64,000 bases of DNA from Azolla caroliniana (GCA_043228905.1 JBHGNT010000008.1:17236001-17300000), one strand, 5' to 3'. Positions 1,126 through 42,300 are shown, counted from the first letter of the stretch. Notes: a model not told the origin generated them from the letters alone. Program-made: numbers and translations.

Positions 1126-1515
1126 CTAAAAATCCCCTCGGCTTTCGCTACCGAGGGTCTCTCGGTTACGCTTGTGGTTCGGTCGCACCGTCAGAAATTG
1201 GACAGATTGTCTCCCATCTTGGCTCTTCATGCGCGCGTACGCCGATCCGTTATCCACCAACTTTGTCTCCATGCATGCTGCCCTAATGTACGGTTGTCCG
1301 AGTATCACCGGATGCGAGGATGTCTCCTGCACGATGTCGTGAAGATTTTCGTCCACGAGCGGAAACTCGAGCAACAACAGCCAAAGAGCGATGTGCAACG
1401 TTGCATACGTACATAATGTATTTGTAATAATAATAGGGGTAAAGGGTATGGTGCTAGAAATGCCCCATAAGATCCCTAAGGTATAAAGGCGATGTGCTCT
1501 TGTGCGCACATCCAC

Positions 1516-1551
<36 letters not shown>

Positions 1552-3880
1552 CTATGCGGTACATAGGTACCTAGTCGTTTGTGAGGAGGTGGGAGTTAAG
1601 GGGCCATCAATCTCACCCTCCCCCAAATCAAGGCAAATATTCCCTTTGAATGAAAGGGGATATTTTAGTCTCACTTTGTAAACGGTCTTCCCTCCTTGTG
1701 CTATAAAAGGAGAGGGAAGGCACCATTGTAAGGGTTGCCTATTTTGAGTGTGCAAGGTATACCACATAGGTCGAGCGTTAGGGTTAGGGTTAGGGTTTCG
1801 AGTAGTCATTTGGGGCGGCCTATGTGGCCACCATTTTGTAATCGTTCATCTCGTTTTGAATACATCTTGTTGTTCATCTTGTCTCCATCTTCCTCTTGTT
1901 TCTTCTTCTTCTTGAGCAAAGCTTCCATTCCGTGTCTGATTCCTTCTCCTCTACTCCTTAGTCCAAGACCCCCGTGGTCCCGCCCTTCTCCACGCACGCG
2001 TGTAGCAACGCAACAACGAAGAAGTGTTGGTCAATCTCGACATCACCAATTTTTACCCGTACATTTGGGCAGGTCCCGTGTAGATCCTATGTGGCATGCG
2101 TCGCCGCTCGTATTTTCCACCCATGCTTGGTGTTGATCGGTCACTTGCCCTTCTTGTAGAAGTCCATAGACATCAGGTTGATCTCCGAACCATGGTCTCC
2201 TAACGCCACCACCGGCTCCTGGACGTCTCCGATCCGAATGGGGGTCTCCGTAGTGGCTCTTGCCCAGTGCAACTTCGAATAGTGGCTTTCCGCCAACTCG
2301 TCTTCCAGGGCCTTATCTTCTAGGTGCGTCGTTCGCACCTTGACCGGCTTCTCCGGCTCCGGCTCCGTCGAAAGCCTTTTCTCTTCACCAAATCCACGAT
2401 GGAGTCATGGAATTCTTTCTTGGCAATCCCAAGCACTTCCCTCCGCGACAACTCCACCTTGTTGTCGAGGATTTGTTCTTCAAGGACCTTCCGCACGTCC
2501 ATCGTTCTTTCTATCTCGGTGTTGAACCGGTAACCGGCTTTCTTTGTTTTATCCGGTGTGCCGGAAGTACCGGCATCATTATGCTTCGGCCTGAACCGAG
2601 TCTCATACTGTTGTAGGGGTCCGGCTCCTCCGGCCTTCCCCGCACACTTGTCTTCTACCAGAACCTCGCAGTTCTTACATGCGGCTTCCACGAAGCCGGT
2701 CTTTTCCTCGACCGGATCGCTCCACCCGGTGACCTCCCAGACCCGTCTTTCCATGCAGTCCGCTTCCTCCCTCCTCAGCCGCATACCGGCAAGGCCTTCT
2801 AGCACCACCAGCTAGAACCCGGAGTCCTTCGTCACTCTTGACCCGGATTACTGCGGACATTGAGTAGTGGATGGTCTTTGTGTGGCGTGCCGCCGCTTCT
2901 TCCATCATCCTCTTCATTCCTCCTTGTCCGATATTCAGCTCCAGGGCTCTCCGGGTCTCGCTAGCATGCACCCTCTCATTCCACAGGTACACCACGTTAG
3001 CCCTTATTGCTTCTACGAAGTCCACGCAGTCCTTCCAGACGTGATCGACCGCGTCACACCACAAGCACCGATGCCCACCCGGAGGCCTTCGGTCGCGAGG
3101 GTGCTCGCCGTCGTCCCTCCTTGCATGTGCAATCAGGAGGTCTCATACCATCTGCATCAGCTCCTCCAGAGCCGCTCCTCCAGGTGGGCCTTTGACCACA
3201 CTGGTCGACGTCGAGCCTGTCTCGAGCCAATCCTGGGTTTCCTCCCTTTGCGCCAGCGGGGGTCCCTCGAGCTTCCTTGCCACAGCTGCTCCTGCCCCCG
3301 ATGAGCCCTTGTTGACCCACTCATGCCGTTTGTCGAAACGGCCACAGACCCCTTTTACCACGGCACAATCGGTTGTCAGCCCATCGTCCATCTCCAACGG
3401 GAGACCCACTTGCTCCCGATCCCGCTCGTCCATGGCTTTGACGAATAAAAGGACATGGCTCGTGTCCAGTACGGTCCTGTCTAGTGCCAAAAGTCGTGCG
3501 AAGCATTCCTCAAACTCCCGGAGGAGCACCGATGCATTCCTCCCCTTCCCGGGGGTCTCCACCCAATCCATGAAGTCTCACTTCGTTAACCGAAGTGCGT
3601 CATCAAGCCCGTACCGTTCGAAGAGCCGCGCTTCCAATTCTCCCTAGGTCCGGCATCTAGTCTACACCTCGAGTAGCTCTACATGGATGCCCGGTGTTGC
3701 CACCCGAGGTAACCCAGCCAGACACCTTTCCTCTGGGATGTCCCTCATCACCATTTCGGCTCGGTAGGCCACCAAATAACTCGTGGTGTCAATTGTGCCA
3801 ACAATTTCTTAAATGGCCCTGTCGAGGGCGCTCGTGCCCTCACGAGCACTTACTATCCGATCGACCGCTGCCACCATGGC
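1126..3880 (-). pseudogene. Degenerate Gypsy gag-protease ORF (frameshifts and stops, split by a solo LTR)
   Basis: ORF-track fragments 3143-3571, 2675-3064, 2320-2808, 2141-2338 and 1126-1515 each align by eye with 34752-35501, 29943-30200 and 29035-29817. The start is approximate. Confidence 0.8.
1335..2015. mobile_element. Solo LTR (681 bp) of the Gypsy lineage inserted into the protease of copy 1
   Basis: Termini TGTCGTG...CGCAACA with a 4-bp TSD ACGA (1331-1334 and 2016-2019). Removing it restores DQHFFV|QETSSHPVILGQP, matching DQHFFVQESASHPVILGQP in copy 2. Confidence 0.92.
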
Positions 3881-3927
3881 TTCGGCGAGCTCTGATCCCC
3901 TCATCTTCAATTCCGTTGCCGCCTTGT

Positions 3928-3945
3928 TTCACATCGGGTTCACCA
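3928..3945 (-). other. Primer-binding site complementary to the tRNA-Trp 3' end
   Basis: Plus strand ttcacatcgggttcacca matches the plant tRNA-Trp(CCA) 3' end (..UUCACGUCGGGUUCACCA, from memory) with one mismatch. It lies 4 nt from the LTR. Confidence 0.8.
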
Positions 3946-3949
3946 AAGA

Positions 3950-4601
3950 TGTCGTGTTATTCTACACACACAGGAGAAACCAAGGTGGGACTAAGGGGGT
4001 GTTACGGGATATTAAATGGTCATGCCAGTAACAGGGGGTCCTGAACCGGGGAATTACCGAACAAAAGGAGGAGCACCACGAACCCACGGCCAAGCCGCGC
4101 ACACACAGATACACAGAGAACTCATAACAAGGTCGAACAACACGGGAGGCGAATGTATATATATATATATAATCAAGATTACAACCGGCTAGCTGGCAAG
4201 CGCCAACTGGTTGACACCAACTCACACAGCACACATGCCTCCGGCTTTCCACGAAGCAGAGGCAGCCCTATAGAGAATGATGAAAGACAGAGGAGAAGAG
4301 CTCGGTCCAAGTCCGACTGCACTTAGTCCTCGACAAAAGCGATCCCCCTCTCAGCCTTCTCCCCTCCCGTTTATAGGCCCCGAGGACAGACTGTTATACC
4401 CTGGTAACATCATTTTTATTCTCTGTCACTTCGGACAAAGATACACTACGATTTCCTAATAAATGCGTACTAGCTAGTATCTTCATATCAACTAAATTGC
4501 TCCTAAGTATGTACAAGTTATTAAATAGTGTGCCCACACGTAAGGGCCAATTCATGCGCATATTTCCTTGTTTCCTCCTAGGGGCGGTTTTCTCCACGAC
4601 A
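3950..4601 (-). repeat. 5' LTR of Gypsy copy 1 (652 bp)
   Basis: Perfect 7-bp inverted termini TGTCGTG...CACGACA adjacent to the PBS. Confidence 0.85.
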
Positions 4602-4860
4602 ACGCGAGAGATAACTTTCGTAAGGAAATTAGGGTTTACCTGAGAGATAGCTTCCGTAAGGAAATTAGGGTTTTTGTGACAAATAGCTTCTAAAAGGAAA
4701 TTAGGGTTTCTGTGAGAGATAACTTCTGTAAGGAAATTAGGGTTTACGTGAGACATAGCTTCCGTAAGGAAATTAGGGTTTACGCGAGAAATAGCTTTCA
4801 TAAGGAAATTAGGGTTTTTGTGAGAGATAGCTTCCGTAAGGAAATTAGGGTTTTTGAGAG
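4602..4860. repeat. 36-bp minisatellite (~7 units), each carrying a telo-box-like TTAGGGTTT
   Basis: Unit ~gagagatagcttccgtaaggaaattagggttt(ac/tt)gt. It appears as a 12-aa repeat in ORF 4394-4801. Confidence 0.9.
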
Positions 4861-5867
4861 ATATTCGATAAGATAATTAGTATTTTCTTCTCTAAGATAA
4901 TTAGGCTTAGAGTTTTTTTTTCCCACTCGAAGATACACTTGCATGAGGAACTCTAGTTTGCATCTTGAGTTTTTTTGCATGCATCCACATGACCTTTACT
5001 TTACATAAAGCTTGACTTTTGTTGCATGGCCTCTACCTTTAGTTGCATGTCTTCCACATGACCTTTAGTTTATGCATGTCCTCCCTCTTTTCTTTGCATG
5101 CCTTTCACATGACCTTTACTTTATGTACGCCCTCCAACTTAAGTTGCATGCGTCCACATCGCCTTTAGTTTACTTTACTTTACTTTACTTTAATTTGCCA
5201 CATGATCCTATCATCCGTCCATCTCGATCGTCGCCCATCAGATCCGTCCGATCTGCATCCGGTTTTCGTTCGGTTTTCATTCGGTTGCCGGTTGCCGGCT
5301 CCATCTGATAGGTCGTCGGTTGCCAGTTCCGTAGCCATCCGGTTCCGATTCCCAACTTCATCACCGACTCATTCGGATTTCCGGTTGCCAGTTGCCGACT
5401 TCGTCTGATAGGTCGTCGGTTGCCGATTCTGTCATCATCCGGTTCGGGTTCCCAACTTCATCGCCGGCTATATTCGATTTCTGGTTGCTGGTTCCTAGCT
5501 TTGTTGCCGGTTCTATCCGGTCACCAATTCCTTAGACACATTTGTCCATGTAGACAACTTGGTCCAAGTCCAACCATTCCTTTTGTGCTCTCAACACATA
5601 GATGAAAACTAATGGTTCTCAATCTGCTTATATAGATGGATCCTAAAGTTTCCTATCTATATCTATGTGGGATATTTCACAAATATATTTTCCTTATCTT
5701 CTCAAGCTTTATATTCACATATCTTGATACTTATTTATCTGTTTCATGTGTAGAAAAATGTGTTATGAAGCTCTTGAAGATATCTATCTTCCCATATCAA
5801 TCCATTAAGCTAATCTTAAATACTTATTTTACTAGTTTTCATATCGTGTGTGAAAAACCACACGACA
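4602..5867. mobile_element. Partial LTR of another Gypsy-lineage element (target of copy 1)
   Basis: Ends in CACGACA at 5867. Shares blocks (ctcaacacataga, ctatgtgggatat, GC-rich ccggtt array) with the LTRs at 27038 and 35900. Confidence 0.65.
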
Positions 5868-6105
5868 GCGACAACATGTCAGTACTTCTGTAAGTCCATA
5901 TGGACTTGTATAAAAGTGCCCTATGAGCACATCCTTTGTACAGAGTTTTTACACAAGGTTTACACATTATTCGAATTTAGTTTTTGCTGTTTGTTTTCCC
6001 TCTCTATCTCTCCCGCTTACATTGTGTCTTAACCTCTCCATTAAACCTGTTTTTTCTCTGTCGGTATTCTGTGTTTCGTATAGCTTCCGCATGTAACATT
6101 TCACA
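5868..6105 (+). mobile_element. 3' part of a Copia family-C-like LTR
   Basis: Similar to 39440-39631 and 43152-43225 (cagtactt..., tataaaag(g)tgc, ctctccattaaacct, gcttccgca...ca terminus). Confidence 0.55.
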
Positions 6106-6211
6106 TCATCTCTATTCCCATTTTTGTGTTTGATTCTTAAACGAAGTGATTCAAGACTCGATTGTGGCTGAGTAATATTCCATGTTATTCTCTTCAAACT
6201 GGTATCAGAGC
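6106..6211 (+). mobile_element. End of a Copia family-B 5' LTR plus tRNA-iMet PBS (6200-6211)
   Basis: actcgattgtggctgagt resembles actcggttgtggccgagt of the 30206 LTR. The same 'ca aac tggtatcagagcg' junction occurs at 30806-30823. Confidence 0.7.
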
Positions 6212-6215
6212 GAAT

Positions 6216-9200: not shown

Positions 9201-9835
9201 GAGACGTTCTACTCGTATAAGACGAAATGTGAGTAGATTTGACCCCTCGTTGCACTACATAATGTTGACCGATGAGGGAGAACCTCTTACATATAAAGAG
9301 GCAAAGGCATGTGAGCACAGCAATAAGTGGGAGCTTGCTATGCAAGAAGAGATTAAGGCTTTGCATTCAAATAATACTTGGGACTTGGTTGAACTGCCCA
9401 AAGGAAGGAAAGCTATTCCGAACAAATGGGTATATAAAATCAAGACCGTTGATGACAAACCCAAGTATAAAGCAAGGTTGGTTGCAAAAGGATATGCTCA
9501 AACTAAGGGCATAGATTTTCAGGAAGTGTTTTCTCCTATGGTAAAAATGACCACTTTGCGAGTGTTATTTGCTATAGTGGTTGCACTTGATCTGGAATTA
9601 GACCAAATGGATGTACATACAGCTTTTTTGCATGGTGACATTGACGAAGAGCTTTACATGAAATAGCCTGAGGGCTTTGTTATTCCTGGACAGGAACATT
9701 TGGTATGTAAGCTCAATAGAAGCTTGTATGGGTTGAAACAAGCTTCTAGACAATGGTACAAAAAGTTTGACGCTTTTATGCTCAAACATGAGTACAAAAG
9801 AAGCCATGTTGATCATTGTTTGTATGCTAAAAGAG
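6216..9835 (+). mobile_element. Ty1/Copia family A element: 5' LTR 6216-6539, PBS 6542-6553, degenerate gag-pol truncated within RT
   Basis: TG...CA LTR followed by tggtatcagagc. The ORF from ATG 6630 has a zinc knuckle (CYQCGRKGHKKPDC), protease WIVDSGAS, integrase HHCC and catalytic core, and RT (KARLVAKGY, QMDVHTAFLHG). Stops at ~6780 and 9664 and a frameshift at ~8050. Confidence 0.9.
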
Positions 9836-13644: not shown

Positions 13645-13664
13645 ACACACACACGCACGCACGC

Positions 13665-13697
<33 letters not shown>

Positions 13698-13699
13698 TA

Positions 13700-13734
<35 letters not shown>
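13645..13734. repeat. (CA)n/(TA)n microsatellite
   Basis: Directly visible. Confidence 0.9.

Positions 13735-13736
<2 letters not shown>

Positions 13737-15571: not shown

Positions 15572-15575
<4 letters not shown>

Positions 15576-15618
<43 letters not shown>
15576..15618. repeat. (GA)n microsatellite
   Basis: Directly visible. Confidence 0.9.
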
Positions 15619-15622
<4 letters not shown>

Positions 15623-26639: not shown

Positions 26640-27003
26640 AATAATAAACAATACAAGAAGATATTTCCAAATGCAAGAGATGAAAAAGAAAAACTTGTTT
26701 AAGCTCAAACCAAAATTAGCATGGGGACAACTCAAGGGTAAGAAAGAAGATTTAAAAGGCCACTTTACAAATGAAGAGATGTTAGACTATGTACAAAGGT
26801 TATATATGCATAAAAGGTGTGGCTCCTATGGTTGAGAAAATTGAAACACCATGCACTACATGTATCGATATTGATGATGTCAATAAGGGAATAAAGAAGA
26901 TGACAAGTGGGAAAGCAGCGGATGTAACCTACATTTCAAGTGAGCTTCTAAAATGGACAATGCCACATACTCATCATTGGATAATGACAATTATAGAGCA
27001 CGC
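26640..27003 (+). mobile_element. 5' piece of a LINE ORF2 (region just upstream of RT)
   Basis: DIDDVNKGIKKMTSGKAADVTYISSELLKW is the typical LINE pre-RT 'K..KA.G.D.I..ELLK' segment. It stops at an LTR-like start at 27004. Confidence 0.65.
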
Positions 27004-27037
27004 TATCGTGAAGATTCCAGGCCATCGGGGGAAACGT
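27004..27037. mobile_element. Start of an older Gypsy-lineage LTR (continues at 37103), target of copy 2
   Basis: tatcgtgaagatt is a decayed TGTCGTGAAGA terminus. Joined to 37103 onward, it resembles the left end of the 1335 solo LTR and the reverse complement of the 39328 LTR end. Confidence 0.55.
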
Positions 27038-27541
27038 TGTCGTGAAGATCCGTCACTAGGTGCGGATCGCGAGGCGGAACCGCCGGGGTTCTGGACCGGA
27101 AGGATCGAAGTTCGCACCAAGCTTAGCGAGAGAGTATTTAGGATAGATTGAGAGAGAGAAAGAGATTAAGATTAAACGCTTAACTTAGATTGAGAAAGAT
27201 TGATATGGCCAAGAGACGAGAAAGTACTTAAGCTAGATTGAAAGAGAGATTAAGATTGAACTCTTGATTTTAGATTTTAAGAGACAAGTTACACCATCAA
27301 TTCGATAACGAATTCTCTTCTTCATAATTTCATAACCAAAAAAAGCCTAACCCTTCTTCTTTTTTATCCCTTCTTTTATAGATGCTCTCATGTATATGAT
27401 GCATGTGAGGGTACAAGACATGCATAAAATGCATGTTTGCCATTTGGCGCTCATGTATTACATGTGGTGCATGACAACTTTAACTCTCAAGTATGAGAAT
27501 TTCTATGTAAAAGTACAATGATAGAAATATAAATTCAACTA

Positions 27542-27612
27542 AATGTCATGGCTTAGTGGTAAGCCTACTGACTCTTAACTAGGAGGTGTAAGGTTTGAAT
27601 CCTCACTTGCCC
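27542..27612 (+). pseudogene. tRNA-Lys(CTT)-like sequence inside the Gypsy 3' LTR
   Basis: A-box TGGCTTAGTGG, loop ctCTTaa and B-box GGTTTGAATCC at tRNA-like spacing. The acceptor stem does not pair. Confidence 0.55.
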
Positions 27613-30205
27613 TCCTTGTGTATATATATGTGATATATATTTATTTATTAATTTGGACGCCGGTTTGCCGGTCGTCGTCGATTACCGGATGACGCTGGTT
27701 CGTCGAATGTCGCCGGTTATCGCCGGATCGCCGCCGCCTCGCCGGTTCCGTCGGATGCCGATTCCACCGGATCCGCCGCCGCATCTCCGGCTTCGTCGAA
27801 TGCCGATACTGCTGGATCACCCATCGCCGGTTACCGTCCAGTTCCATTTTCGTTGGCCAAAACCTTTACAAGTGGCTAAGCCACCTCCACCCTTAGTTCA
27901 AGTTACCTTGAACTCTCTATGCTCAACACATAGACACAAAGATAATAGCTTTTGATCTACCTTATATATTATGAGAGTCGTATTTGTCGTGCCTATGTGG
28001 GATATCTCACAGTTTTCTCGTTTCCTTTCACAAACTTTATACCCTCATATCTTGACATCTAGTTGTCCGTTTCTCGTGTAATAAAGTGCATTCGGAGTAG
28101 ATGGACCGGCCAGCAAACGCTTCGGCAAATTCGTCCACGCTCGGACCGATTCCGGCATTTCGAATTGTCACCTTGTTCACGGGTTAAAGATCTTGGATGA
28201 ATCGCAATGACCCATTCTTCTTCGGCACCGTGAACCACCTATTGGAATAAGGAGCATTCGACGGTTCTAGAATTCCCATACTCACCTTCTCCTTTAAGAG
28301 CTCGATCAGCTTCGGAAGGTGTGCTCTCGGAACCGATATCAGTTTCGTATTCCAAGGCACATGAGGCACCGTGAAGATCACCATTGGCTCTATAACCTTT
28401 GGGTCGTCACATCTGATTTCTTGTGGGAAGAATGTGAAAGCCTTCCCATGTCTCTCAAGCATATCGCAAAACATTCGCTCCTCTTCAGGGAGAAGGAAAT
28501 CCTCCTTTCCAACTCGTAGCTTCCCCTTCGTCTCTTCGGTGAAAACATGACCTATCATCTTCGGATCTCTTAAGCTTGGATCGTTAGCGACTTCCTTCAT
28601 CTTTTGCCAGCTATCTTCCGGTAGCGGAACCGCAACTGGCTTGATCTTCCTATCCACCGTTTTATATTTTGTGTTGATGTCAGCTTCCTTCATTGAGATG
28701 CCATGACGGTATTCATCGATGATAACGTACATGTTGACGGAGTTAACCGAAATCACGCTTTGGTCGTGAAGATAGCTCAAGTCCACGACGTCCTCGATTT
28801 CACGGATGGTGTCGTTAAATGAGGCCTCTTCTATAATATGAGACACGAACTCTCATTCTTCTATCTTCTTTCAACATCTTCTAGAATTCTTGTATCTGAC
28901 GCTTGTCCTTCTTGTCGGGTAGTACTAGTTTACATGCGCCACTAGGTGTGACACATGTTGCTTCTCCTCACAATTCACGCACTCTTCTTACTTGTGGGGT
29001 CTTGTGATTGCTCAGACTATTTGTGCCCCATGCTTCAATAGTCCGCTCTAAAAATCCGGGATTCGCTTATAAGATTATCTCGATTCCTTTCATGATTGGC
29101 TCGCACCGTTAGGAATTGGACCAATCTTTGGTTGTCAAGACTCTTTATTCGTGCGAAGGCTGCTCCATTATCGAACACTTTGGTCTCCATCCAAGATAAT
29201 GTGATATACGGTTGCCCTAGGATGACAGGATGCGACGCCGATTCTTGTACGAAGAAGTGTTGATCCATCTCCACATCCCCGATCGTGACTTTGGCATTGG
29301 GACAAGCTCCGTACAAGTCCTCTGTAGACTTTGTTGCCGCGCGAATCTTCCATCCGTGGTTTGTATTGATTGGCCATCTTCCTTTTTTGTAGAAGTCGGT
29401 TGACATGAGGTTGATCTCTGAGCCGTGGTCGATCAAAGCTACCACGGTCTCTTTCTTCTCCTCGATCTTCACCGGCGTCTTCGTTGTCGCTCGTGCCCAA
29501 TGAGGTCGAGTATAGTGGTTGTCCATCATATCCTCATTGACTTCGTCTCTTGCCATCGTTATGGCATTCTTTTTTGCTTTTTGTAGCTTCTCTTCTTCCT
29601 CGTCTGATTGTTGTCTTTTTCTCTTTACAAGGTCCACGATCGCGTCATGGAACTCCGTAATGCCAAGCAATTCCCTCAAGGACAAAGTCATGTGGCTATC
29701 AAGAACTCGTTCTTCGAGAATCTTCTTTAGGTCCGTCGTCTGCTCTATGTCCGACCTTAGCTTATAGGTAGGCATAGTCCTTGTCCTCTGAGCGGGGTCT
29801 TCGACACTAACCTTCACGGGTCGAACCGTTTCTTTAACTCGTATGCTCAGCTCCCCTTTTCGGCTTGATGTTCCTCTGTTTGTAAAGGTCGACTCGTCTC
29901 CGAATCGTCCTTCTTTTTCGCGTTCCTTGTTTCATGTCTTTTTTATGGGCCTTGCTCTTCTATGCTTTTTCTCTTTTCTTCGACGAACACCTCGTGGTTG
30001 TCGCACATCACCTCCGCGAGTATGGTGTTGTCGTCCACCGGATTCGACCACCCGGTTATGCTTTGTACGCTTCGGTCCGCAAGCTCTACTTCGTTCGAAG
30101 TGACTTTTCCCTTTTTCTCATATTCAAGAACGGAAGTCCAAAACTTTGCTCCCGCTCTAGCAGCTTCAGTCTTGTCTTTCCCGACTCTTATTCCGGCGGA
30201 CGTAG

Positions 30206-33200
30206 TGTTGGGATTACGGTTCCTTCGGATGGGATGGTCGGATATCGGAGATGAATGCCGACAAGCCCGGTTTCGGTTTCGGAACCGGATGATGAAGACC
30301 CCGGCTTCGGAGCCGGATGACGAATGTACCCGGAGCGAGATCCGGATGCGGGGACATATCTGTGAATATGTTTGCCAAGGGCCCTTGAGGCTATAGTTGT
30401 AAATAGCCCCAAAGTCATATGTGTATAAATATGACTTAGGGCAAACAGTTTTAATGTTGCTACTCATTTTTCTGTTTTTCCACTCAAGAGGAGTGAAGAG
30501 AGAGCAGCCGTGAGAGAGATAGAGCGTGAGAGAGGAGGAGGTCGACGCCTCTGTGTATTTCCGCCGCCTGTGGCGAGGACAACGAGCTCAAGGTCGTCGC
30601 CTTGCAGCTCGCCATTGTATATTTCTCTGTGCATAGTTTTGGTTTGGAGTCTTGTACTCCCGTGGTTTTTCCCGTCTAGGGTTTTCCACGTTAATCCCTG
30701 TGTATTCGTGTTCTTTCTCTGTGGTTCCTATTTTCTGCTGCATTGATTCGTGCTTACTCGGTTGTGGCCGAGTGGTGAAGGTTAATCGGAGCGTCGATTT
30801 CTCTACAAACTGGTATCAGAGCGACTGCTGCAGAAAATGGAAGGCGGCGGCAGCGGGCAGTCGGGGATGATGGTGCTGAATGCGCAGAATTACGCCGACT
30901 GGAAGATCAAGATGGAGGATCTTCTGATTGTTCGGGACCTGTACGAACCGATCGACAGGTCGGAAATACCGAAGGGGGTACTTGAGTCGGAATGGAGGCT
31001 TCTGAACCGGAAAGCCGTAGCAACCATTCGGCAATACGTAGACGTGAGCGTTCTACAACATGTGGCGAACGACACCAACGCATATGAGATGTGGCGGAAG
31101 CTGTCGGGCCTCTACGAGAGGAAGAATGCGTTGAACCGGACCTCCCTGATGAGGAAGATAGTGAACCTCAAGTACCGGGACGGCGAGAGTATGGTGGAAC
31201 ACGTAAGCACGTTCATGGGATTCGTGAACCAGCTTGTGGCGATCAAGTTCCCGTTGGAGGATGCAATGCAAGCCATCATCCTGATGTGTACATTGCCGGA
31301 AAGCTGGGAGAACTTGGTGGTGACTCTCAGCACCTCCTGCACCGAAGATAACTTGTCCCTACAAACGGTAAAGACAAGTATTTTGAACGAAGAAGCGCGT
31401 CGGAGAGATAAAGAACCGGCCTCCGATCCGAAGATGTTGTTTACCGAATCGGATCGGGGAAGACAACGGAACCGGAGTCCGCAAAGACGGGAGAAGTCGG
31501 GGACCCGGTCGCAGTCAAGAGGAAGACCCACATGCTTCCACTGTGGGAAGCCGGGGCACTTCTGAAAGAATTGTCGGCATTACCGAAAAGACAACGGAGC
31601 CGACGACACCGATTCGAAGAAGTCTTCGGAACGGAACGGTGCTTACCGGGGAGCCACGGACCGGAATGGTTCGGATCGGCGAGGGCAGGACAGGAAAGGA
31701 ACGACGACACTCGCGGCAAGTGAGGAAGAAATCATGCTCATCACTGAAGAAGGTGAGCTAAACATTGCCGGCGATGAGACGACCTGGGTGGTCGATTCCG
31801 GAGCGTCGTTCCACCTGACCCCGGAGAAGAAATACTTCTCATCCTACACAGCCGGTGAGCACGGCTGTGTTCGGATGGGAAATGAAGGTACGTGCCGGAT
31901 CGCCGGCATAGGAGACGTGTGGTTGACAACCTCGACCGGATGTAAAATGCTGCTGAAGGATGTCCGACACGTTCCGGAGGTTCGATTGAACCTTATTTCG
32001 GCCGGGAGGCTAGACGATGAAGGCTACACAGGTAGCATCCGGAACGGCGTAATGAAGTTCAGCAAAGGGAGCCTGATAGTGGCTCGGGCCCGGAAGATCA
32101 ACACACTGTACCTGATGAATGCCCGGTTATGTCCGGAAGAGCTGAATGTGGCAGCCGACACTGCCGGTGAGCTGTGGCACAAAAGACTGTGCCACATGAG
32201 TGAGAAGGGGATGAAGAGGCTTGCAGAAGACAACCTTATTCCAGTGAAGCATGTGCACCTGGAGAAGTGCACCGATTGCCTGGCCGGTAAGCAGAACCGA
32301 ACCTCCTTCCACTCAAGGCCACCGACGAGACGTAGCGCACCATTGGAGTTGGTGCACACCGATGTGTGTCAGGTAGAAACGAAGTCACATGGCGGAGCCC
32401 AGTACTTCGTAACATTCATAGATGATCATAGCCGAAGACTGTGGACGGCACCGATGAAGACAAAGGACCAAGTGTTGTCCGTCTTCAAAGAACTCCACGC
32501 GAGAGTGGAAAGAGAATCCGGCAAGAAGCTGAAAGCGATACGAGCGGATAACGGAGGGGAATACCGGGGACAGTTCCAGGAGTACTGTCGCTCGAAGGGA
32601 ATCCAGCTCGAGTTTACTGTGCCGAAGACGCCGGAACTGAACGGGCTGGCCGAGAGGATGAATCCGACCATAATGGAGAGGGTCCGGAGTATGCTGGCGC
32701 ATGCGGAATTACCCAAGGGGTTTTGGGCTGAGGCGATGTCAACGGCGACATACGTGATAAACAGATCACCCTCAGTACCTTTGGACGGAGACACGCCGCA
32801 GAGAGTGTGGACCGGTAGGGAAGTATCCTACCGGCATCTGAAGGTGTTCGGGTGTCTCGCATACGTGCATGTGGCAAAGGACCGGAGAGGAAAGCTAGAT
32901 CCAAAGACCCGGCCATGCATATTCCTCGGTTACGGCGATGACGAGTTCGGCTACCGAGTATGGGACCCGGTCGACAAGAAGATATTCCGGAGTCGTGATA
33001 TCATCTTCATGGAGAACAAGACACTCGTCGACTGGGAGTCGGAGAAGAAGATGAAGAGCTCCAAGTCGACCGGTGAGGATCAACTCTACGAGGAGCAGTC
33101 CCGACCGGCAAGGGACCGGTTAGCACTCGAGGATCCGGCCGAAGACGGTGAAGAAACAGAACCGGCCGAAGAAGATGAAAATGATACCGGAACCGGCCCC

Positions 33201-34805
33201 GATCCCGAAATAGATTCGAATGAAGAAGAATCGGAAGAACCGGTTACCGAAGCTCCGGAACGGAGATATCCTCTAAGAGAGAGAAGGGGCCCCCGGAGAT
33301 TACCGGAACCAGAGCACCTGTTGCTAACCGACGAGGGGGAGCCGGAGAGCTTTGAAGAAGCAAAGCATGACACCCAGAGCCGCAGGTGGTTGAGTGCCAT
33401 GCAGGACGAGATGGATTCCCTGCATGAGAACCACACATATGAACTTGTGGAGTTGCCGAAAGGAAAGCGGGCACTTCGAAACAAGTGGGTGTTCAAGCTG
33501 AAACCGGGAGATGCCGGAAACCCCCCGAGATACAAAGCCAGGATCGTGGTGAAGGGGTTTCAGCAAAAGAAGGGCGTCGACTTCGACGAGATATTTGCCC
33601 CGGTAGTGAAGATGACCTCCATCCGGACGGTGCTGAGCATAGCGGCCAAGTGGATACTCCGATACCTGAAGGGCACGGCAAACGTGTGCCTTCGATTCGG
33701 CTCCGGTAAGCCCGAACTCGATGGCTTTACCGATTCGGATATGTCGACTGATGCAGATACCAGCCGGTCCACATCAGGGTATGTGATGACGTATGCAGGG
33801 GGAGTTGTTTCATGGCAGTCGAGGCTGCAGAAGACGGTTGCGTTGTCAACCACGGAGGCGGAGTACATGGCGGCTGTTGAAGCCGGCAAGGAAATAATAT
33901 GGATGAAGGACTTCATTAGAGAGCTCGGTATCCGACAGGAGGAGTACCGACTCTACTGCGACAGTCAGAGTGCAATCCACCTTGCGAAGAACGCAGCCTA
34001 TCACTCCCGGACGAAGCACATCCAGCGAAGATATCACTGGATCCGGGAAAGGATAGAAGACAAGGAGTTTGTGCTGACGAAGGTCCACACGGACGAGAAC
34101 GGGTCGGATATGCTGACCAAGGTGCTCACGCCCGACAAGCTGGAAGCATGCCGGAAGAGGATCGGATTGGAGAGACATCCCATGCCGAAGTGAAGGGGGA
34201 GTTTGTTGGGATTACGGTCCCTTCGGATGGGATGGTCGGATATCGGAGATGAATGCCGACAAGCCCGGTTTCGGTTTCGGAACCGGATGATGAAGACCCC
34301 GGCTTCGGAGCCGGATGACGAATGTACCCGGAGCGAGATCCGGATGCGGGGACATATCTGTGAATATGTTTGCCAAGGGCCCTTGAGGCTATAGTTGTAA
34401 ATAGCCCCAAAGTCATATGTGTATAAATATGACTTAGGGCAAACAGTTTTAATGTTGCTACTCATTTTTCTGTTTTTCCACTCAAGAGGAGTGAAGAGAG
34501 AGCAGCCGTGAGAGAGATAGAGCGTGAGAGAGGAGGAGGTCGACGCCTCTGTGTATTTCCGCCGCCTGTGGCGAGGACAACGAGCTCAAGGTCGTCGCCT
34601 TGCAGCTCGCCATTGTATATTTCTCTGTGCATAGTTTTGGTTTGGAGTCTTGTACTCCCGTGGTTTTTCCCGTCTAGGGTTTTCCACGTTAATCCCTGTG
34701 TATTCGTGTTCTTTCTCTGTGGTTCCTATTTTCTGCTGCATTGATTCGTGCTTACTCGGTTGTGGCCGAGTGGTGAAGGTTAATCGGAGCGTCGATTTCT
34801 CTACA
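30206..34805 (+). mobile_element. Young Ty1/Copia family-B element, structurally complete but RT-deleted
   Basis: 602-bp LTRs at 30206-30807 and 34204-34805 (TG...CA, one visible mismatch). 5-bp TSD CGTAG, PBS tggtatcagagc 30811-30822, PPT gaagggggag 34192-34201. Excision restores host Gypsy gag MHYAT|SAGIRV. Confidence 0.97.
30837..34193 (+). pseudogene. Copia gag-pol in a single frame with one nonsense codon (TGA 31563-31565) and an in-frame RT-core deletion
   Basis: ORFs 30837-31565 and 31734-34193 are in the same frame. The stop lies inside the zinc knuckle (CFHCGKPGHF*KNC). Protease WVVDSGAS, integrase and RNase H are present, but RT jumps VLSIAA|KWILRYLKG with no YVDD. Confidence 0.92.
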
Positions 34806-36310
34806 CGTAGCATAGTGCATCGCATTCACATGAGTCGCATCGGCATCCTTCATAGCTTTCTTCATTCCTCCTCTTCCGAAATTCACCTGTAGGGGTCTTC
34901 TAGTCTCGCTCGAGCAGATCATGTTGCCATCTATGTACACGATATTTTGTCGGATCGCCTCTCGAAGGCTCGCGCAATCCCTTCTCATGTGGTTCATGCT
35001 ATCGCACCACACACATCTAAAGGGTTCTTTTCCTTTGGGCCCCCAACGATTCATGTTGGCTAGCGTGACCTTCTCAAACTTCTTCGTTAGCTCTTCAATG
35101 ATGTCGTCATCAATCTTCTTTTCTTCTGGACTGCTTTGTTTGGGCGGCTCAACTACTTTCGGTTGTCTTGTTTTTTCCGCAACAGTCGATCCCGCCAAGT
35201 CGGTGTCATCAACCCACTGACGACGCTTGTCGAGCCTATTGCATGCTCGCTTTACCGCAACCCAGTCCGCCACAAGCCCGTTCACTTTGGTATCATCTTC
35301 GAGAAGAGTTCCCAATTCTTGTCTATCCTTCATGTCCACGGCCTTCAAGAAGTACAAAGTCTTGTCCTCTTCAAGCAACACTTGGTCCGTGTTGGGGAGA
35401 CGAATAAACATCTGGTCGAATTCATCGTACACCCTCCAGGCGCTCATCTTCTTATTCTTCTTCTTTATCCACTTCATCAGGGCATGTCGAGTCATCCTCA
35501 TTGAGTCTTCAGTCGCGAACTCTGCTAGTATCGTTTTCTCAAACTCAGACCATGTTGTCTTATCTTCTTGAAGCTCAATGACGCGTCTTTAGATGTTGTT
35601 GGCGACAACTCTCTTGAAGCTTGCGATTTGACGTGCTTCGAACACGTCCCTCTGATTCATCTCCCTTCTATATGTGTCAAGGAACTACGTAATGTTCCTT
35701 CGTAATGTTCCTTCAAGGAACACGATCGACAACCTTCTCCAGGCTCGCGTTGTTGTCCCGAGATCTCATCATTTGCTCAACGATTAGCATCATCCTTTCG
35801 AGCTCTCCCGCTTGATTACTTGAGGATGCCATCTCCAAGTATTAATCTCGTCTTGATCCTTCCTACCGCCTCTTTCATGTCGGGTTCACCACTTAATTAT
35901 GTCATGAAGATCCGTCACTAGGCGCGGATCGGGAGGCGGAACCGTCGGGGTTCTGGACCGGAAGGATCGAAGTTCGCACCAAGCTTAGCGAGAAAGTATT
36001 TAGGATAGATTGAGAGAAAGAAGAGAGATTAAGATTGAACTCTTGATTTTAGATTTTAAGAGACAAGTTACACCATCAATTCGATAACGAATTCTCTTCT
36101 TCTTAATTTCATAACCAAAAAAAGCCTAACCCTTCTTCTTTTTTATCCCTTCTTTTATAGATGCTCTCATGTATATGATGCATGTGAGGGTACAAGACAT
36201 TTGGCCCTCATGTATTACATGTGGTGCATGACAACCATGTCACTCATTTTAGCTCTCATATATGAGAATTTCCATGTAAAAGTACAATGATAGAAATATA
36301 AATTCAACTA

Positions 36311-36381
36311 AATGTCATGGCTTAGTGGTAAGCCTATTGACTCTTAACTAGGAGGTGTAAGGTTTGAATCCTCACTTGCCC
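36311..36381 (+). pseudogene. tRNA-Lys(CTT)-like sequence inside the Gypsy 5' LTR
   Basis: Near-identical copy of 27542-27612. Confidence 0.55.
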
Positions 36382-37399
36382 TCCTTGTGTATGTATATGT
36401 GATATATATTTATTTATTAATTTGGACGTCGATTTGTCGGTTACCACCGGCCCGTCGGATGTCGATACCGCCGGATCACCGTCTCCGTCGGATGTCGATT
36501 CCGCGGCCGCCTCGCCGGCTCCATCGAATGCCGATACCGTCGGTTACCGTCCAGTTCCGTTTTGGGTATGTATATGTGATATATATTTATTTATTAATTT
36601 GGACGTCGATTTGTCGGTCGCCACCGGTTAGCGGATGACGTTGGTTCGCCGTATGCCACCGGTTACCGCCGGCCCGTCGGATGCCGATTCTGTTGTCGCC
36701 TCGCCAGCTCCGTCGAATGCCGATACTGCCGATTATCGTCCAGTTCCGTTTTCATTGGCCAAAAGCTTTACGAGTGGCTAGGCTAGGCCACCTCCACCCT
36801 TAGTTTAAGTTACCTTGAACTCTCTATGCTCAACACATAGACACAAACATAATAGCTTTTGCTCTACCTTATATATGATGAGAGCCGTATTTGTCGTGCC
36901 TATGTGGGATATCTCACAGTTTTCTCTTTTCCTTTCACAAACTTTATGCCCTCATATCTAATAAAGTGCATTCGAAAGCTCTTGAAGACCTCAATCATTT
37001 TGTACTAAGATACTTCACTATTATGGTTTTATGTGATTCATACTCGATTTTGCACGTTTTATGTGATTTTCACACCATTGCCGAAAATCTTCACAACAAC
37101 GTCGCCAAAATCATGGGAACGCGGGTGTGCACAAGTGCACCCCCTTTTTGTACTAACTTGTGTAAGTACTAGGTGTAAGTACTAGGTGGCCTCAAACTGT
37201 TTGAGGGGTGGTTGTTTTTTTTTCCTCTTTTTTCTTAAGAAGCAGAGGACGTTGCTGAATAGCGGGAAGGAGCTCGCTCATCCATTCTCTCTAGGACCTC
37301 CACGACCAATCATTGGAAGGAACCCTCGGCTAGCGTTAGAATGAGGTCGACGAGGAGTGGCTTCTAATCGGAAGGTTCCTAAGAACGATAATGACGGAC

Positions 37400-38580
37400 G
37401 CATCATGGACAAGGGAGGAAGCGAGTCAACTCCGGAAGAGGGCGTACTGGTACTTCCTACGAAACGGAAAAATTTGGAGGCATCCGAAGAAGCGCAACGA
37501 CACGCCACTCCGGGTAGTAACGTGAATCGAGGATCAAGCAAAGCTGATATCGGAGTTCCACGAAAGCCCTTGGTTCAGGCATTGGGGTGCATGGGCCACG
37601 TTCGAGAAGCTAAAGGATAAGTATTGGTGTCCGGGAATGTATAAAGGCGTACACCACTTCGTGTTGACATGTGAGAGTTGCCATATGCACTTAGTGGTTT
37701 GGCACCGCGACGAGCTGCACCCGACTTACCCTCCAACCATACACTTCAAGTGGATGGTCGACTTGGTGACAATGTTGATGGGAGTAGGACAGATGCAATA
37801 CCTAGTGCTAGCAAATGAAGATCTGACAAACCAAGCAGAGGGCCGAGCGTTAACAAAAAAGACCATTGCGGCCGTGTGCAAGTTTCTGATTGAAGATGTC
37901 GTCTGCCAGTACGTGTGCGTAGGAAAGATAGTAGCCGAACGAGGAGAACTGGATGTGGAGGCCAAGGAATTGTTTGACCGACTAGGGGTGAAGTTGACCC
38001 TCACAACAACGTACAACGTAGAAGCAAACGGGAAGGTCGAGCAGGGTCATGGACCGATCGTAAAGGCCATAGTACGTGCATGCGAAGGACGAGTCAGCAA
38101 CTGGCCGAGACTACTCCCTTACGCGCTATGGGCGGACCGAACTACCCACAGTTCGGTGACTGGGTACATGCCTATAGAGCTCATGTTCAGGCAGAAACCC
38201 ATCATGTCGGTGGAATGAACAATTACCTCTTGGATGGCGGTCAATTGGGCCGATGAAATGAGCCGAGAAGAATTGTTGGCGGCACGCATCCGACAACTTG
38301 AGCGAAGGTCGGAAGATGTGGAACGAGCGACGAGGGTAAAAGAGGCACAGAGCATAAACAAGGCCAAGTTCGACCGGACACATCGACTCCGTCCAAAGAA
38401 GATCGAGGAAGGTGACCGAGTGTTGGTCTACGACAACAGTCTCGACAACCAGCATCGGTCTACACGTAAGTTCGCAAAATGGTGGTTCGGGCCGTACGTG
38501 GTGACTTGTGCAAATGACAACGCAACCTACCATCTTGTGGAACTCGATGGAACATGGATGACGACACCAGTAGCAGGGAA
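37400..38580 (+). pseudogene. Degenerate Gypsy integrase
   Basis: H...H..CESC zinc-binding region, catalytic core (WMVDLV..., ANGKVEQGH) and GPY/F motif (WFGPYVV...YHLVELDG); stops and frameshifts. Confidence 0.85.
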
Positions 38581-38587
38581 GTGGAGT

Positions 38588-39328
38588 TGTTACGCGTGTG
38601 CGTGTAGAAGGGCGGGACCACGGGGGTCTCGAACTAGGGAAGAGGGGAAACCGTGAAGACGATTCTCGGCGGGTTCCAGAAGCCACCGAACGGGAGAGAG
38701 AAAGAGAGAGAACGCGCGCTTGACTCCGACTCGCACCCACACACACACCCCGTCGAACCAACTCACGCCCTTATGTACAGAAACGCAGGGAAGGGAACAC
38801 CAAAACACCCATGAGACACGAGTATGCACAGATGGATACTAGTATGTATATTACAAAGGGGAAGAATACAATCCCGGCTTCGAGCCGGACCATGGTAGGG
38901 TAGGTTACAGCAGCAGTCTGCTGCCAAGTTGTCGTCCGGGGAGCTCTCGGGCTCGTAAAGCGGAGCGGGGTCTTGCACAGGAGACCTAGCAGAGACAGCC
39001 CTCAACGGTTGAACTCCCCGCCAAGAAGAAGAAGAAGAAGAAGAAGAAGAAGAAGAAGAAGAAGAAGAAGAAGAAAACTAACTCTAAACCTAATGGTATA
39101 CCCTCTAACACAAAACGGACAACCCTTTCACAAAGGGCGCTCCCTTCCTTTTATAGAACAAGGAGAGGGATGCGTTACAATGTGGGATAAATCCCGACTT
39201 ACTCTTCGGCGCCATAAAGGCGCCCTCGTTATTCACACTAAATGTACTAGGGTGAGCACACATGTTGCACCCCGCCGATGTAGCCAATGTTTCCCGGTTT
39301 CTGCCTCTGGCCGAAATTCTTCACGACA
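38588..39328. mobile_element. Gypsy-lineage LTR related to the 1335-2015 solo LTR (opposite orientation), with an internal (AAG)n tract
   Basis: The left end ..agaagggcgggaccacgggggtc is the reverse complement of ~1967-1989. The right end is tcttCACGACA. Left boundary uncertain by ~8 nt. Confidence 0.75.
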
Positions 39329-42300
39329 CCATTGCGTAACGAGAGGTCGTATTGGTGCGTAAACCGAAAGGCCGTTAGAGAGATATTCCTCGTAAGGAAT
39401 AGTTTTAGGAGTAAGTGTCAAGGCTCATTTATGAGCAGTCAAGTACTATCAGTACTTGTGTCAGCCCATTGTCAGGGCTTATATAAAAGGTGCTCACTGA
39501 GCACGGTGTATGTACAGAGTTAGTATTTTTTGAATTGAATTTCTTGTGTGTTCTCTCTCTGTCTCTCCTGTGTACTGTGTATACTCAAGCTCTCCATTGT
39601 TTTCTATTGCTTCCGCACATAATCTTTTACATGGTATCAGAGCGCGAGGGTTGAGAACCTTTGCAGCCGACATAGCTTGAAAGAAAAACCAACCAAGAAG
39701 AACATGCAAAACTGATGGATAGAGGCATGGCTAGCTCGCTTCCAACAGAGAAGCTCGACAGAAACAACTACGCGTCTTGGTCTTACAGATGCACCAGTAC
39801 CTGCTCGAACACAGTTATTGGAGCTATGTCGACGGAGCAAATGACACAGCACCCGATTCGACACACAAAGACTTCTCGGCTTGGGAACAGTCGGCGAGCA
39901 AAGTATTGTACTGCTTCGCGTCTTGTGTGGGTGAACAACTCTTGACCTATATTTGGGATGAGAAAACGCAAAAGGATGCTTGGGGAAATCTGAAGAAGAT
40001 CTTCGCCACAAGCACCACAACCAGGAAGCTTCAACTCCGATAGGAGGTGAGCAATTTACGATAACACGACTTGTCGGTGGCTGATTACACCTCGAAGATC
40101 AAACATATATGTGATTCTCTAGCCTCTATCGATGTGAACGTCGAGGAAGGCGAGATGGTGCAAATTTGTCTCAGAGGACTGGCGTCGAAGTTTGGAGCGT
40201 TCCAAACTGCTGTGTGTACACAGGAGAATACGCCGTTTTTTTTCGACTTACAGTCGATGTTCCTTATAGAGGAGAACGACGCGGGTGCGTCGACGAGCAA
40301 GCATGCCGACAGCAAGATGTTGTACACGGAGGGAGATAGGCCTTGTGGTCGTGGCGGACGAGGCGAGTCGGTGCGTAATGGAGGCGGCCGACGGGATCAA
40401 GGAAGAAGGCATGAAGTGATGCCGACATCAACTCCAGACCCTCCGGAAACAGGGGGAGTCGAGGCGACGAGAACCGACAAGGGAAATTCGTCGCGGAATG
40501 GTGGTATTGTGGCAAGAAAGGCCACAGGGAGAGCGAGTGTTGGAAAAAGCGCGCCGATTCGGAGAGAACCGTGTTCGAATCAGGTTTCAGACATACCGAC
40601 AAAGGAAATCGGCAGCGATCGCACTACGCCGAAGGATCCGAAGAAGCCGAAAAAGGGTCAATCTTTGTGATGAGACATGAAGCAAACTCGATGAAGAAGA
40701 TCACCCCGAAGTCGGAGGAGGTGTGGTATGTTGACTCCGGTGCGTCAAACCACATGACGTGCCACAAGGAGTGGTTCTCTTACTTGGAAAAACCGATGCA
40801 ACCGGGAGTAGTCGCAACCAGAGATGACACTCCGCATCCGATCGCAAATGTTGGTGAAGTTCCCTTGAGCCATGTCGGGCAGAAAGGGAAACTTATGAAC
40901 GTGCTACACGTTCCAACAATCACGAAGAATTTGGTGTTGTTCGGGCAGATCGTCGACCAAGGGATGCAAGTCCGGTTCATGCATCTCGGGTGCTTCATCG
41001 AGCAAGAAGGCCGAGTTATTGCTCAAGGGTGCAGAGACGAGAGGATGTTTATCCTCGACTCTAGTGACGGTGACACCGCAATGTTCGCGAAAGGACAAAA
41101 AGTCGAGTCGGACATCGACTTATGGCACAAGCGGATAGGTCACATCAACTATCAATGGCTTTAGGACCTACAATCGAAATATGTGGTGTTTGGATTGCCC
41201 AAATTTAGTGGTCGAAAGGCACAAATTTGTGAAGCCCGCTAACTCGGGAAGCAACATCGACTTCCCTTCCCTAACGAGCATAACCGGAGCCGGAACAAGC
41301 TCGGCCTAATACATTTCGATGTATAGGGGCCGACACAGAACGTTAGTCTTGGCGGGAGTCGATATTTCATCTCCTTCATCGACGACTATACGCGGTACAC
41401 GTGGATCTACCTTATTGAGAAGAAGGGTAAAGTCTTCGACTGTTTCCGGGACCTTAAACAGTTCGTGGAAATGGAAACAGGACGAAAGATCAAGTGCATG
41501 CGGTCGGATGGCAGAAAAGAGTACTTTTCTGGTCAATTCAACGACTATTTGCAACAGATGGGAATTCGGCACAAATTTAGTTGTAGATACAAGTCAGAGC
41601 AAAACAGCGTGGCCGAGAGGAAGAATCGATCGATTGTGGAAGCGGCGCGGGCAATGCTAGAAGAAAAGAGCTTGCCCAAGTTCTATTGGGCCGAGGAAGT
41701 GTCGGCGCATGAGTAGTATTTCGGCAAGAAGCTGAATCTGTGATACTTGAGAGTTATCGGTAGCATTGTGTATGTGCATGTGCCAAAGGAGAAACGGAGG
41801 AAGCTAGACACGAAAGCCGAGAAGAGTATCTTGGTTGGCTATTCGGACGAGCAAAAGGGTTATAAGTGTTATAACCCACACACCAAACAAGCGCGTGCGC
41901 GTAAGCCGCGACGTTGTGTTTGATGAGTCCGCGTCCTGGTACTTGCCTCCGACTCCGGACCTCACCTCCAATCCAAGTTCTGACGATGAGGTCAGCGAGG
42001 CCAAGATGCCTTCGGATGAGCCTAAAATCAGGACCCGTTGGATTAAGTCAATTCGACTAGTCCGATGGAGAGCCGGCGAGTAGTGGAGACTCAGTCGTGC
42101 ATTCCCTGCACAGGAAGCCGAGGAGACGGCTTACGCACAAGGAAAAAGGGAAGAAGAAGGTGTTGGATTACGGCACGGATAGGAACGAGTCGGATCGACG
42201 TGAGTTCGACTCCGAGGGAAGTGACGACGGGTCTTCGAGACCGAAGTCCACGTCAGCCAAGAAAGCCTCAACATCGGCTAATGAGCAATTACGCCGATAA

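What the first reader, a model, noticed from the sequence alone, without database searches (positions are those of the whole stretch)
1331..39332. A Gypsy lineage that appears to integrate at CpG-centred 4-bp targets (NCGN)
Seen: the six outer junctions I could read for the TGTCGTG/CACGACA-type LTRs are ACGA (true TSD, 1331/2016), ACGT (true TSD, 27034/37099), ACGC (4602), ACGC (27000, inside an otherwise CpG-poor LINE), GCGA (5868) and CCAT (39329). Five of six have a central CG; the sixth is what CCGT gives after CpG deamination. Known: most plant LTR elements make 5-bp TSDs with little sequence specificity. Inference: the integrase may recognise CpG (possibly methylated), steering insertions into other TEs; all six sites are inside other retroelements. 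n is small, and four sites are single-sided.
Basis: partly seen in the sequence, partly recalled or inferred. Interest (0 to 1): 0.8.

Follow-up and report, generated by a model that had tools for sequence, protein, structure and literature searches.

The report
Phygy-type retrotransposons inserting at CG
These plant jumping genes almost always insert into a 4-letter site with CG in the middle, a habit already reported for the Phygy group to which they likely belong, and the data here show no sign that they seek out other transposons beyond landing where CG is common.

Summary
The six 4-mers are as reported. Genome-wide, 1357 of about 1501 outer LTR starts of a young sister family follow NCGN, against 3.4% background. 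All 41 perfectly matching duplications are 4 bp and CG-centred. A Copia control gave 5-bp TSDs in 15 of 15 insertions, none CG-centred. Neumann et al. 2019 (PMC6317226) report 4-bp NCGN TSDs and tRNA-Trp priming for Phygy. These elements match on TSD, tRNA-Trp PBS and lack of chromodomain or extra RNase H. No Phygy reference sequence could be placed in a tree. Added here: the target is a palindromic V-CG-B core, best ACGT, a strict form of the foamy-virus VYRB site. Flanks are repeats as often as random CpGs are (139/197 vs 412/600, p=0.66), so CpG distribution suffices to explain nesting. Whether the CpG must be methylated is untested. Two look-ups of earlier scan notes showed no report of this.

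The parts
1331..1334 (+). TSD ACGA, left copy, inside the gag-pol of element B (same lineage)
   Evidence: empty-site paralogue has one ACGA
1335..2015 (+). solo LTR, family A (TGTCGTG...CGCAACA)
   Evidence: relatives have a tRNA-Trp PBS after the LTR and a PPT before it
2016..2019 (+). TSD ACGA, right copy
972..3937 (-). degenerate gag-protease and start of pol of element B, split by the solo LTR
   Evidence: tblastn 65-85% to the gag of an intact relative, 42% over 62 aa to the start of its pol
3934..3945 (-). tRNA-Trp primer binding site of element B
   Evidence: complementary to the 3' end of genomic tRNA-Trp(CCA)
3950..4601 (-). 5' LTR of element B; probable partner 3' LTR lies about 13 kb left of the window (L190:5848-6476)
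4602..4605 (+). outer flank ACGC (probable partner flank ACGT in L190)
5200..5867 (-). LTR fragment D, related to family C (other end not found; start approximate, strand by analogy with family C)
   Evidence: 70-75% to family C LTRs; three other D-type ends are flanked by ACGG, ACGG and ACGT
5868..5877 (+). GCGACA (likely terminus of another LTR of the lineage) followed by ACAT, where the Copia host LTR resumes
   Evidence: paralogues read TGAAGT-ACGT and TGAAGT-ACAT
27000..27003 (+). outer flank ACGC in a CpG-poor LINE (CpG o/e 0.32); junction ambiguous by up to 3 bases
27004..27037 (+). start of LTR E, interrupted by element C; its last four bases (27034-27037, ACGT) are the left TSD copy
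   Evidence: continues at 37103; the uninterrupted paralogue L112 has one ACGT
27038..37098 (-). element C: 3' LTR 27038-about 28110 (inner end deleted), pol fragment 28094-29057, gag-protease 29056-35729 split by a Copia, tRNA-Trp PBS 35880-35891, 5' LTR 35900-37098; LTRs 94% identical
30206..34805 (+). young nested Copia (LTRs 99.8% identical) with 5-bp TSD CGTAG; its family served as control
37099..37102 (+). TSD ACGT, right copy
37340..38581 (+). integrase fragment of element E (75% to the intact relative), cut at its 3' end
38584..39328 (-). LTR F (family A-like); left end lost in a deletion junction (start approximate)
39329..39332 (+). outer flank CCAT in a Copia LTR; paralogues read CCGG

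Best explanation
These are Ty3/Gypsy LTR retrotransposons, likely of the Phygy lineage, that insert into a 4-bp target with a central CG, and their integrase likely chooses that target by its sequence and shape rather than by its methylation or by being inside another transposon. SHOWN: 4-bp duplication; CG centre; palindromic V-CG-B core (A first and T last favoured; T first and A last avoided); no evident preference outside the four bases; tRNA-Trp PBS; no chromodomain; nesting no higher than for random CpGs. INFERRED: as in the foamy-virus intasome, the closest solved integrase, the target is kinked at the central step, which favours a pyrimidine-purine pair. Base-specific contacts would then narrow YR to CG. 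Candidates are the invariant acidic residue at the position of PFV Ala188 and the conserved QH..KF loop of the C-terminal domain. Because CpGs are concentrated in repeats, insertions pile up in other elements as a side effect. After insertion the TSDs would be methylated and decay to CA or TG.
For: Genome-wide exact counts for a young sister family: 2701 LTR starts, 1200 inner (PPT-preceded), 1357 after CGN, 1456 after YRN. That gives 90% CG and 7% other YR among about 1501 outer ends. 41 of 41 perfect TSD pairs are CG-centred, and 63 of 64 two-sided sites have CG on at least one side. CG is only 14% of YR steps in background, so this is more than bendability. Among 188 CG ends, T is first in 6 and A last in 11; T precedes 33% of background CGs. 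TCGA was seen 0 times against 13 expected, ACGT 32 against 7. PFV's consensus TSD is VYRB with an unstacked centre and Ala188/Arg329 base contacts (PMC4422553, passages). PFV integrase is the best PDB match by sequence and by fold. Repeat content of flanks equals that of random CpGs (locus bootstrap 0.63-0.78 vs 0.58-0.77). No chromodomain or methyl-binding domain at Pfam E<=0.1. 14 of 17 central TSD mismatches are C/T or G/A. Phygy features as published.
Against: No REXdb Phygy sequence could be read (the files are too large), and no Physcomitrium protein was among the hits listed (120 of 226, 120 of 977), so lineage membership rests on features. Intact copies are about 7.3 kb, below the published Phygy range of 7656-9968 bp. 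The repeat test sees only high-copy repeats (600-kb library), and most repeat CpGs may be methylated anyway, so a methyl-CpG preference could hide in it. Non-repeat, CpG-depleted flanks are rarer for insertions than for random CpGs (9 of 197 vs 57 of 600), which fits selection or chromatin effects. The candidate residues are unproven. The C-terminal loop has pLDDT under 50. The Ala188-equivalent contacts bases 3 positions outside the site, where no clear preference is seen here.
Confidence: 0.72

Rival explanations
1. The integrase reads methylated CpG itself, so new copies are steered into already silenced repeat DNA.
For: CG choice is far stricter than flexibility alone predicts (41 of 41; CG is 14% of YR steps). 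TSD CpGs decay by C-to-T (14 of 17 central mismatches). Flanks are repeats more often than random positions are (139/197 vs 279/600).
Against: There is no excess of repeat flanks over random CpGs (p=0.66) or motif-matched CpGs (p=0.26). Flanks are not more CpG-depleted than those of random CpGs (o/e below 0.5 in 20 of 197 vs 93 of 600). No reader domain was found. Ginger1 DNA transposons with a Gypsy-like integrase use CCGG or CCGT/ACGG targets, and that paper's main text never mentions methylation (PMC2836005, passages). TSD decay reflects the state after insertion.
Confidence: 0.15
2. Integration is driven only by DNA bendability (any central YR step), and CG dominates for compositional reasons.
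For: Retroviruses with 4-bp TSDs favour central YR and disfavour T first and A last (PMC4422553, passages), the same edge pattern as here.
Against: CA, TG and TA together make up 86% of YR steps in this genome. They are 0 of 41 perfect TSDs and only 99 of about 1501 outer ends. In two-sided sites a CA or TG centre nearly always faces a CG on the other side.
Confidence: 0.04
3. The elements work like Phygy but form a separate lineage that reached 4-bp CG targeting and tRNA-Trp priming independently.
For: No reference sequence was placed in the tree. The size is slightly below the Phygy range. TatI also has 4-bp TSDs and a tRNA-Trp PBS.
Against: NCGN is listed for Phygy alone among all plant lineages. 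There is no second (archaeal-type) RNase H, which TatI has in 100% of elements. The clade holds liverwort and fern proteins, and Phygy has been annotated in a liverwort (PMC12885004, passages).
Confidence: 0.08

Closest known systems
Phygy (non-chromovirus Ty3/gypsy; Neumann et al. 2019, PMC6317226; passages and supplementary lineage table read; the element list and FASTA were too large to read)
   Same: 4-bp TSD with NCGN, tRNA-Trp PBS, no chromodomain, no aRH, no extra ORF, coding region filling the internal part.
   Different: Described there from Physcomitrella only. Intact copies here are about 7.3 kb against 7.7-10 kb. The paper gives NCGN; here it is refined to V-CG-B with ACGT best. 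ORF organisation is not determined there; here gag-protease overlaps pol in another frame.
Prototype foamy virus intasome (PMC4422553, passages read)
   Same: Closest solved integrase; 4-bp TSD; VYRB pattern, of which VCGB is a subset.
   Different: PFV's preference is weak, takes any YR and extends outside the TSD. Here it is near-absolute for CG with no clear signal outside. The Ala188 position is acidic here (E 73, D 11 of 84 relatives).
Ginger1 DNA transposons (PMC2836005, passages read)
   Same: Gypsy-like integrase, TGT termini, 4-bp CG-centred TSD (CCGG 75%, CCGT/ACGG 24%).
   Different: Cut-and-paste DNA transposons of animals that prefer CCGG. Here ACGT leads and CCGG is not enriched (8 observed vs 9.8 expected).
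TatI (Neumann et al. 2019, supplementary table)
   Same: 4-bp TSD, tRNA-Trp PBS.
   Different: TatI carries an archaeal-type RNase H (100%) and has no NCGN note. No second RNase H was found here.

Membership tests
Phygy | 4-bp TSD | tested here: met
   41 of 64 two-sided sites match exactly over 4 bp and none of these over 5; 22 differ by 1-2 bases, 1 by 3; 1 of 64 matches as a 5-mer
Phygy | NCGN target | tested here: met
   41 of 41 perfect TSDs; 1357 of about 1501 outer ends genome-wide
Phygy | tRNA-Trp primer binding site | tested here: met
   The PBS is complementary to the 3' end of tRNA-Trp(CCA) genes of this genome
Phygy | Gypsy domain order, no chromodomain, no aRH, no extra ORF | tested here: met
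   Intact copy L130: gag-protease 726 aa overlapping RT-RH-INT 1172 aa, the only two ORFs of 300 aa or more; Pfam at E<=0.1 shows one RNase H and no chromo domain
Phygy | Length 7.7-10 kb | tested here: inconclusive
   Intact copies measure 7.26-7.35 kb, just below a range drawn from one moss; the paper treats size as a weak classifier
Phygy | RT/RH/INT phylogeny groups with REXdb Phygy references | not testable with these tools
   Reference FASTA too large. The RT tree shows a distinct clade (100/100) with Riccia and Adiantum proteins, apart from five other RTs of this genome at 23-26% identity, but holds no labelled Phygy row
TatI / Tat clade | additional archaeal-type RNase H | tested here: not met
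   One RNase H region only, directly followed by integrase
Chromoviruses (Tcn1, Galadriel, Tekay, Reina, CRM) | chromodomain at the integrase C-terminus | tested here: not met
   No Pfam chromo hit; the ORF ends about 30 low-confidence residues after the C-terminal domain
Methyl-CpG-directed integration (hypothesis) | target methylated before insertion | not testable with these tools
   No methylome available; sequence proxies show no excess over random CpGs

The most novel reading that the evidence does not exclude
The integrase of this lineage is a near sequence-specific CG cutter that reads 5-methylcytosine directly, through an acidic residue at the target-contacting helix and a lineage-specific C-terminal loop. 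It would then target silenced DNA without a chromodomain, a targeting route my searches did not find described for a retroelement.
Probability: 0.15. Interest if true: 0.7.

Novelty: new member of a known kind. Interest (0 to 1): 0.2.

Why it matters
The headline (a Gypsy lineage with 4-bp NCGN targets) is in print for Phygy, so it is not a discovery. What remains useful: (1) a young, high-copy family (about 1,500 outer LTR ends with an exact 20-mer, many intact ORFs) makes the untested question of methylated versus unmethylated CG directly testable; (2) the refined V-CG-B motif ties the lineage to the foamy-virus integration geometry and points to candidate specificity residues; (3) strict CG choice appears enough to explain nesting, without chromatin targeting; (4) the lineage's termini and PBS recur in metagenome relatives, with CG flanks where readable, and its proteins occur in liverworts and a fern, beyond the one moss for which it was named.

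Tried and rejected
Two apparent full-length copies of window families A and C (L091-L094) were deleted elements filled by nested Copia and gave no usable pol; I then used an intact sister family found through the window's integrase. A first junction count with short fuzzy end patterns picked up internal LTR matches and mixed families A and C; it was replaced by alignment-anchored ends. Preference outside the four bases: no clear signal over 10 positions on either side. Re-insertion into an old TSD as a hotspot: back-to-back LTRs separated by ACGT exist (6 of 7 junctions inspected look like LTR ends), but the short genome pattern gave 157 places against 119 for its control, and my screen flagged only 2 of 220 ends, neither a convincing LTR start. 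No hotspot is shown. Mapping PFV Arg329 onto the model failed because the loop has low confidence and the domains are arranged differently. A tRNA-like stretch in the family C LTR gave no Rfam tRNA match. The primary PFV structure paper was not held under the id I recalled, so PMC4422553 was used. PMC7466625 (passages) has no mention of TSD, target site or methylation. PMC6911290 (passages) notes GC-rich centres of 4-bp TSDs and Phygy nested in Tcn1. Searches for a test of methylation dependence found none: listings only for most hits. Earlier scan notes held nothing on this subject (0 hits; 8 of 74 shown, all on other elements).

Full report
Observation. Two are true 4-bp target-site duplications, confirmed by paralogous empty sites with one copy: ACGA around the solo LTR 1335-2015 and ACGT around element C, 27038-37098. 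Of the single-sided sites, 4602 gains a probable partner. Element B's pol continues in the left neighbour (L190), whose LTR is 90% identical and is flanked by ACGT against ACGC here. CCAT at 39329 corresponds to CCGG in three paralogous Copia LTRs; a fourth (L209) did not align over the site. GCGA at 5868 appears to be part of another LTR terminus, with the host resuming at ACAT, where one paralogue reads ACGT and one ACAT. The junction at 27000 is ambiguous by up to three bases. The window is a nest of at least five LTR types of one lineage, plus Copia elements, a LINE and a Harbinger-like ORF.

Genome-wide test. I collected relatives by LTR ends and by integrase, never by flank. Alignment-anchored mapping in 250 loci gave 388 LTR ends, of which 147 were inner and 220 were unique outer ends. 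188 of the 220 have a central CG, 12 TG, 8 CA and 12 something else. Of 64 two-sided sites, 41 match exactly over 4 bp and all 41 are CG-centred; 13 differ by one base, 9 by two and 1 by three, and one matches as a 5-mer. 63 of 64 have CG on at least one side, and 14 of 17 central mismatches are C/T or G/A. Background CpG is 0.0335 per position in 60 evenly spaced 10-kb stretches and 0.0495 in the local flanks. For a young sister family that is not itself in the window (pol 75% identical to the window's integrase fragment), exact whole-genome counts are 2701 LTR starts, 1200 inner, 1357 after CGN and 1456 after YRN. So about 90% of some 1501 outer ends are CG and 7% other YR; the remainder includes mutated inner junctions. 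Control: the Copia family nested in the window has 5-bp TSDs in 15 of 15 insertions (read by eye; one unpaired LTR left out), none with CG at an inner position and two with CG at an edge.

The motif. The target is a palindromic V-CG-B. Among 188 CG ends, A is first in 111 and T in 6, T is last in 87 and A in 11. Among 118 de-duplicated CG sites, ACGT is seen 32 times against 6.7 expected and TCGA 0 against 13.2. There is no clear signal in the ten bases on either side. CG makes up only 14% of pyrimidine-purine steps in the genome, so bendability alone does not explain it.

What the elements are. Intact copies are about 7.3 kb, with LTRs 99.1-99.9% identical, a PPT, and gag-protease overlapping a 1172-aa RT-RH-INT frame. 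The PBS is complementary to the 3' end of the genome's tRNA-Trp(CCA) genes. Pfam shows no chromodomain and no second RNase H. Named relatives come from the liverworts Riccia and Calypogeia and the fern Adiantum. In an RT tree of 33 rows they form one clade (100/100) with this genome's copies, apart from five other RTs at 23-26% identity; only 3 of the 47 near-identical copies were kept. In 80 metagenome loci (INT 52-94% identical) the TGTCGTG start, CGACA end, PPT and Trp PBS recur. The four readable outer 5' flanks all have a central CG, and one 3' flank reads CTGC.

Comparison with what is known. Neumann et al. 2019 (PMC6317226; passages) write that Phygy elements have an insertion preference for NCGN, the only exception among plant lineages. 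Their supplementary table gives 186 elements, 4 bp (100%, NCGN), 7656-9968 bp, tRNA-Trp 81%, no extra domain. The element list and FASTA were too large to read, so tree membership is untested; TSD, PBS and domain content fit, and the size lies just under the range. TatI shares the 4-bp TSD and Trp PBS but has aRH, which is absent here. Jedlicka et al. (PMC6911290; passages) noted GC-rich centres of 4-bp TSDs and Phygy nested in Tcn1. Phygy is annotated in a liverwort (PMC12885004; passages). Ginger1 DNA transposons use CCGG or CCGT/ACGG with a Gypsy-like integrase (PMC2836005; passages).

Mechanism. The closest solved integrase is that of prototype foamy virus, by sequence (E 2e-21) and by fold (Foldseek E 1e-16 on an AlphaFold model of pLDDT 78, though with a different domain arrangement). 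PFV makes 4-bp duplications with consensus VYRB, unstacks the central step, and contacts bases through Ala188 and Arg329 (PMC4422553; passages). VCGB is a strict subset of that pattern. I infer the same kinked target capture, with added base readout. The catalytic triad is D862, D921 and E956 of the L130 pol frame. The residue aligned with Ala188 is acidic in 84 of 84 relatives, and the C-terminal loop keeps Q (82 of 84), H (80), K (84) and F (84). These are candidates only: the loop is modelled poorly, and Ala188 acts outside the TSD, where no clear preference is seen.

Methylation and nesting. With one classifier (blastn against the 600-kb sample, own locus excluded), 300-base flanks were repeats in 139 of 197 insertion ends (23 of the 220 were dropped for short flanks or non-CG/CA/TG centres). 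The figures were 412 of 600 for random CpGs (p=0.66), 396 of 600 for motif-matched CpGs (p=0.26), 279 of 600 for random positions (p=4e-9) and 27 of 30 for Copia flanks (locus bootstraps). Nesting therefore follows where CpGs are. The test sees only high-copy repeats, the two ends of one insertion are not independent, and repeat CpGs may be mostly methylated, so a methyl-CpG preference is not excluded. Against my reading, non-repeat CpG-depleted flanks are rarer among insertions (9 of 197) than among random CpGs (57 of 600). TSD decay shows methylation after insertion only. My searches found no test of this question.

Verdict. A real and very strong target preference, correctly spotted from six junctions, but already published for the Phygy lineage. 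These are new members in another genome. The steering-into-TEs idea is not needed to explain the data, and the methylation idea remains open at about 15%. Interest 0.2.

Noticed in passing
L190:5838-5860; L362:1501, L363:1501, L365:1501, L366:1501 and 2227: Two LTR ends of this lineage sit back to back, separated only by ACGT, as expected when a new copy inserts into the CG of an older TSD. No excess over chance was shown.
   Followed up: partly
window 3934-3949 and 35880-35899: The PBS lies 4 bases (element B) or 8 bases (element C) from the LTR end, and 0-6 bases in metagenome relatives. From recall, 0-3 is more usual.
   Followed up: no
window 27038-27054 and 37082-37098: The two ends of family C LTRs share an inverted repeat of about 12 bases (TGTCGTGAAGAT), longer than the usual few bases; the termini themselves contain CG and can serve as targets (see 5868).
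   Followed up: partly
window 27546-27612 and 36316-36382: A tRNA-like stretch (by eye, Lys-like) inside family C LTRs; Rfam gave no tRNA match for 27038-28200.
   Followed up: partly
window 30206-34805: Very young Copia (LTRs 99.8% identical, TSD CGTAG); 587 exact LTR starts genome-wide; its flanks are repeats in 27 of 30 cases, more than for the CG-targeting lineage.
   Followed up: partly
window 50416-52275 (+): 619-aa open frame with a DDE_Tnp_4 (Harbinger-type) domain.
   Followed up: no
window 13665-13735: A 70-base near-perfect palindrome.
   Followed up: no
G000:C8:17796786-17823371, C16:4989495-5105657, C5:10105608-10112201: Clusters of tRNA-Trp 3'-arm matches, spaced about 1.2 kb apart on C8, suggesting tandem tRNA-Trp gene arrays.
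   Followed up: no
L091-L094 and window 28094-28110: Copies of families A and C that lack most or all of pol but keep LTRs, PBS and gag-like frames, possibly non-autonomous derivatives.
   Followed up: no
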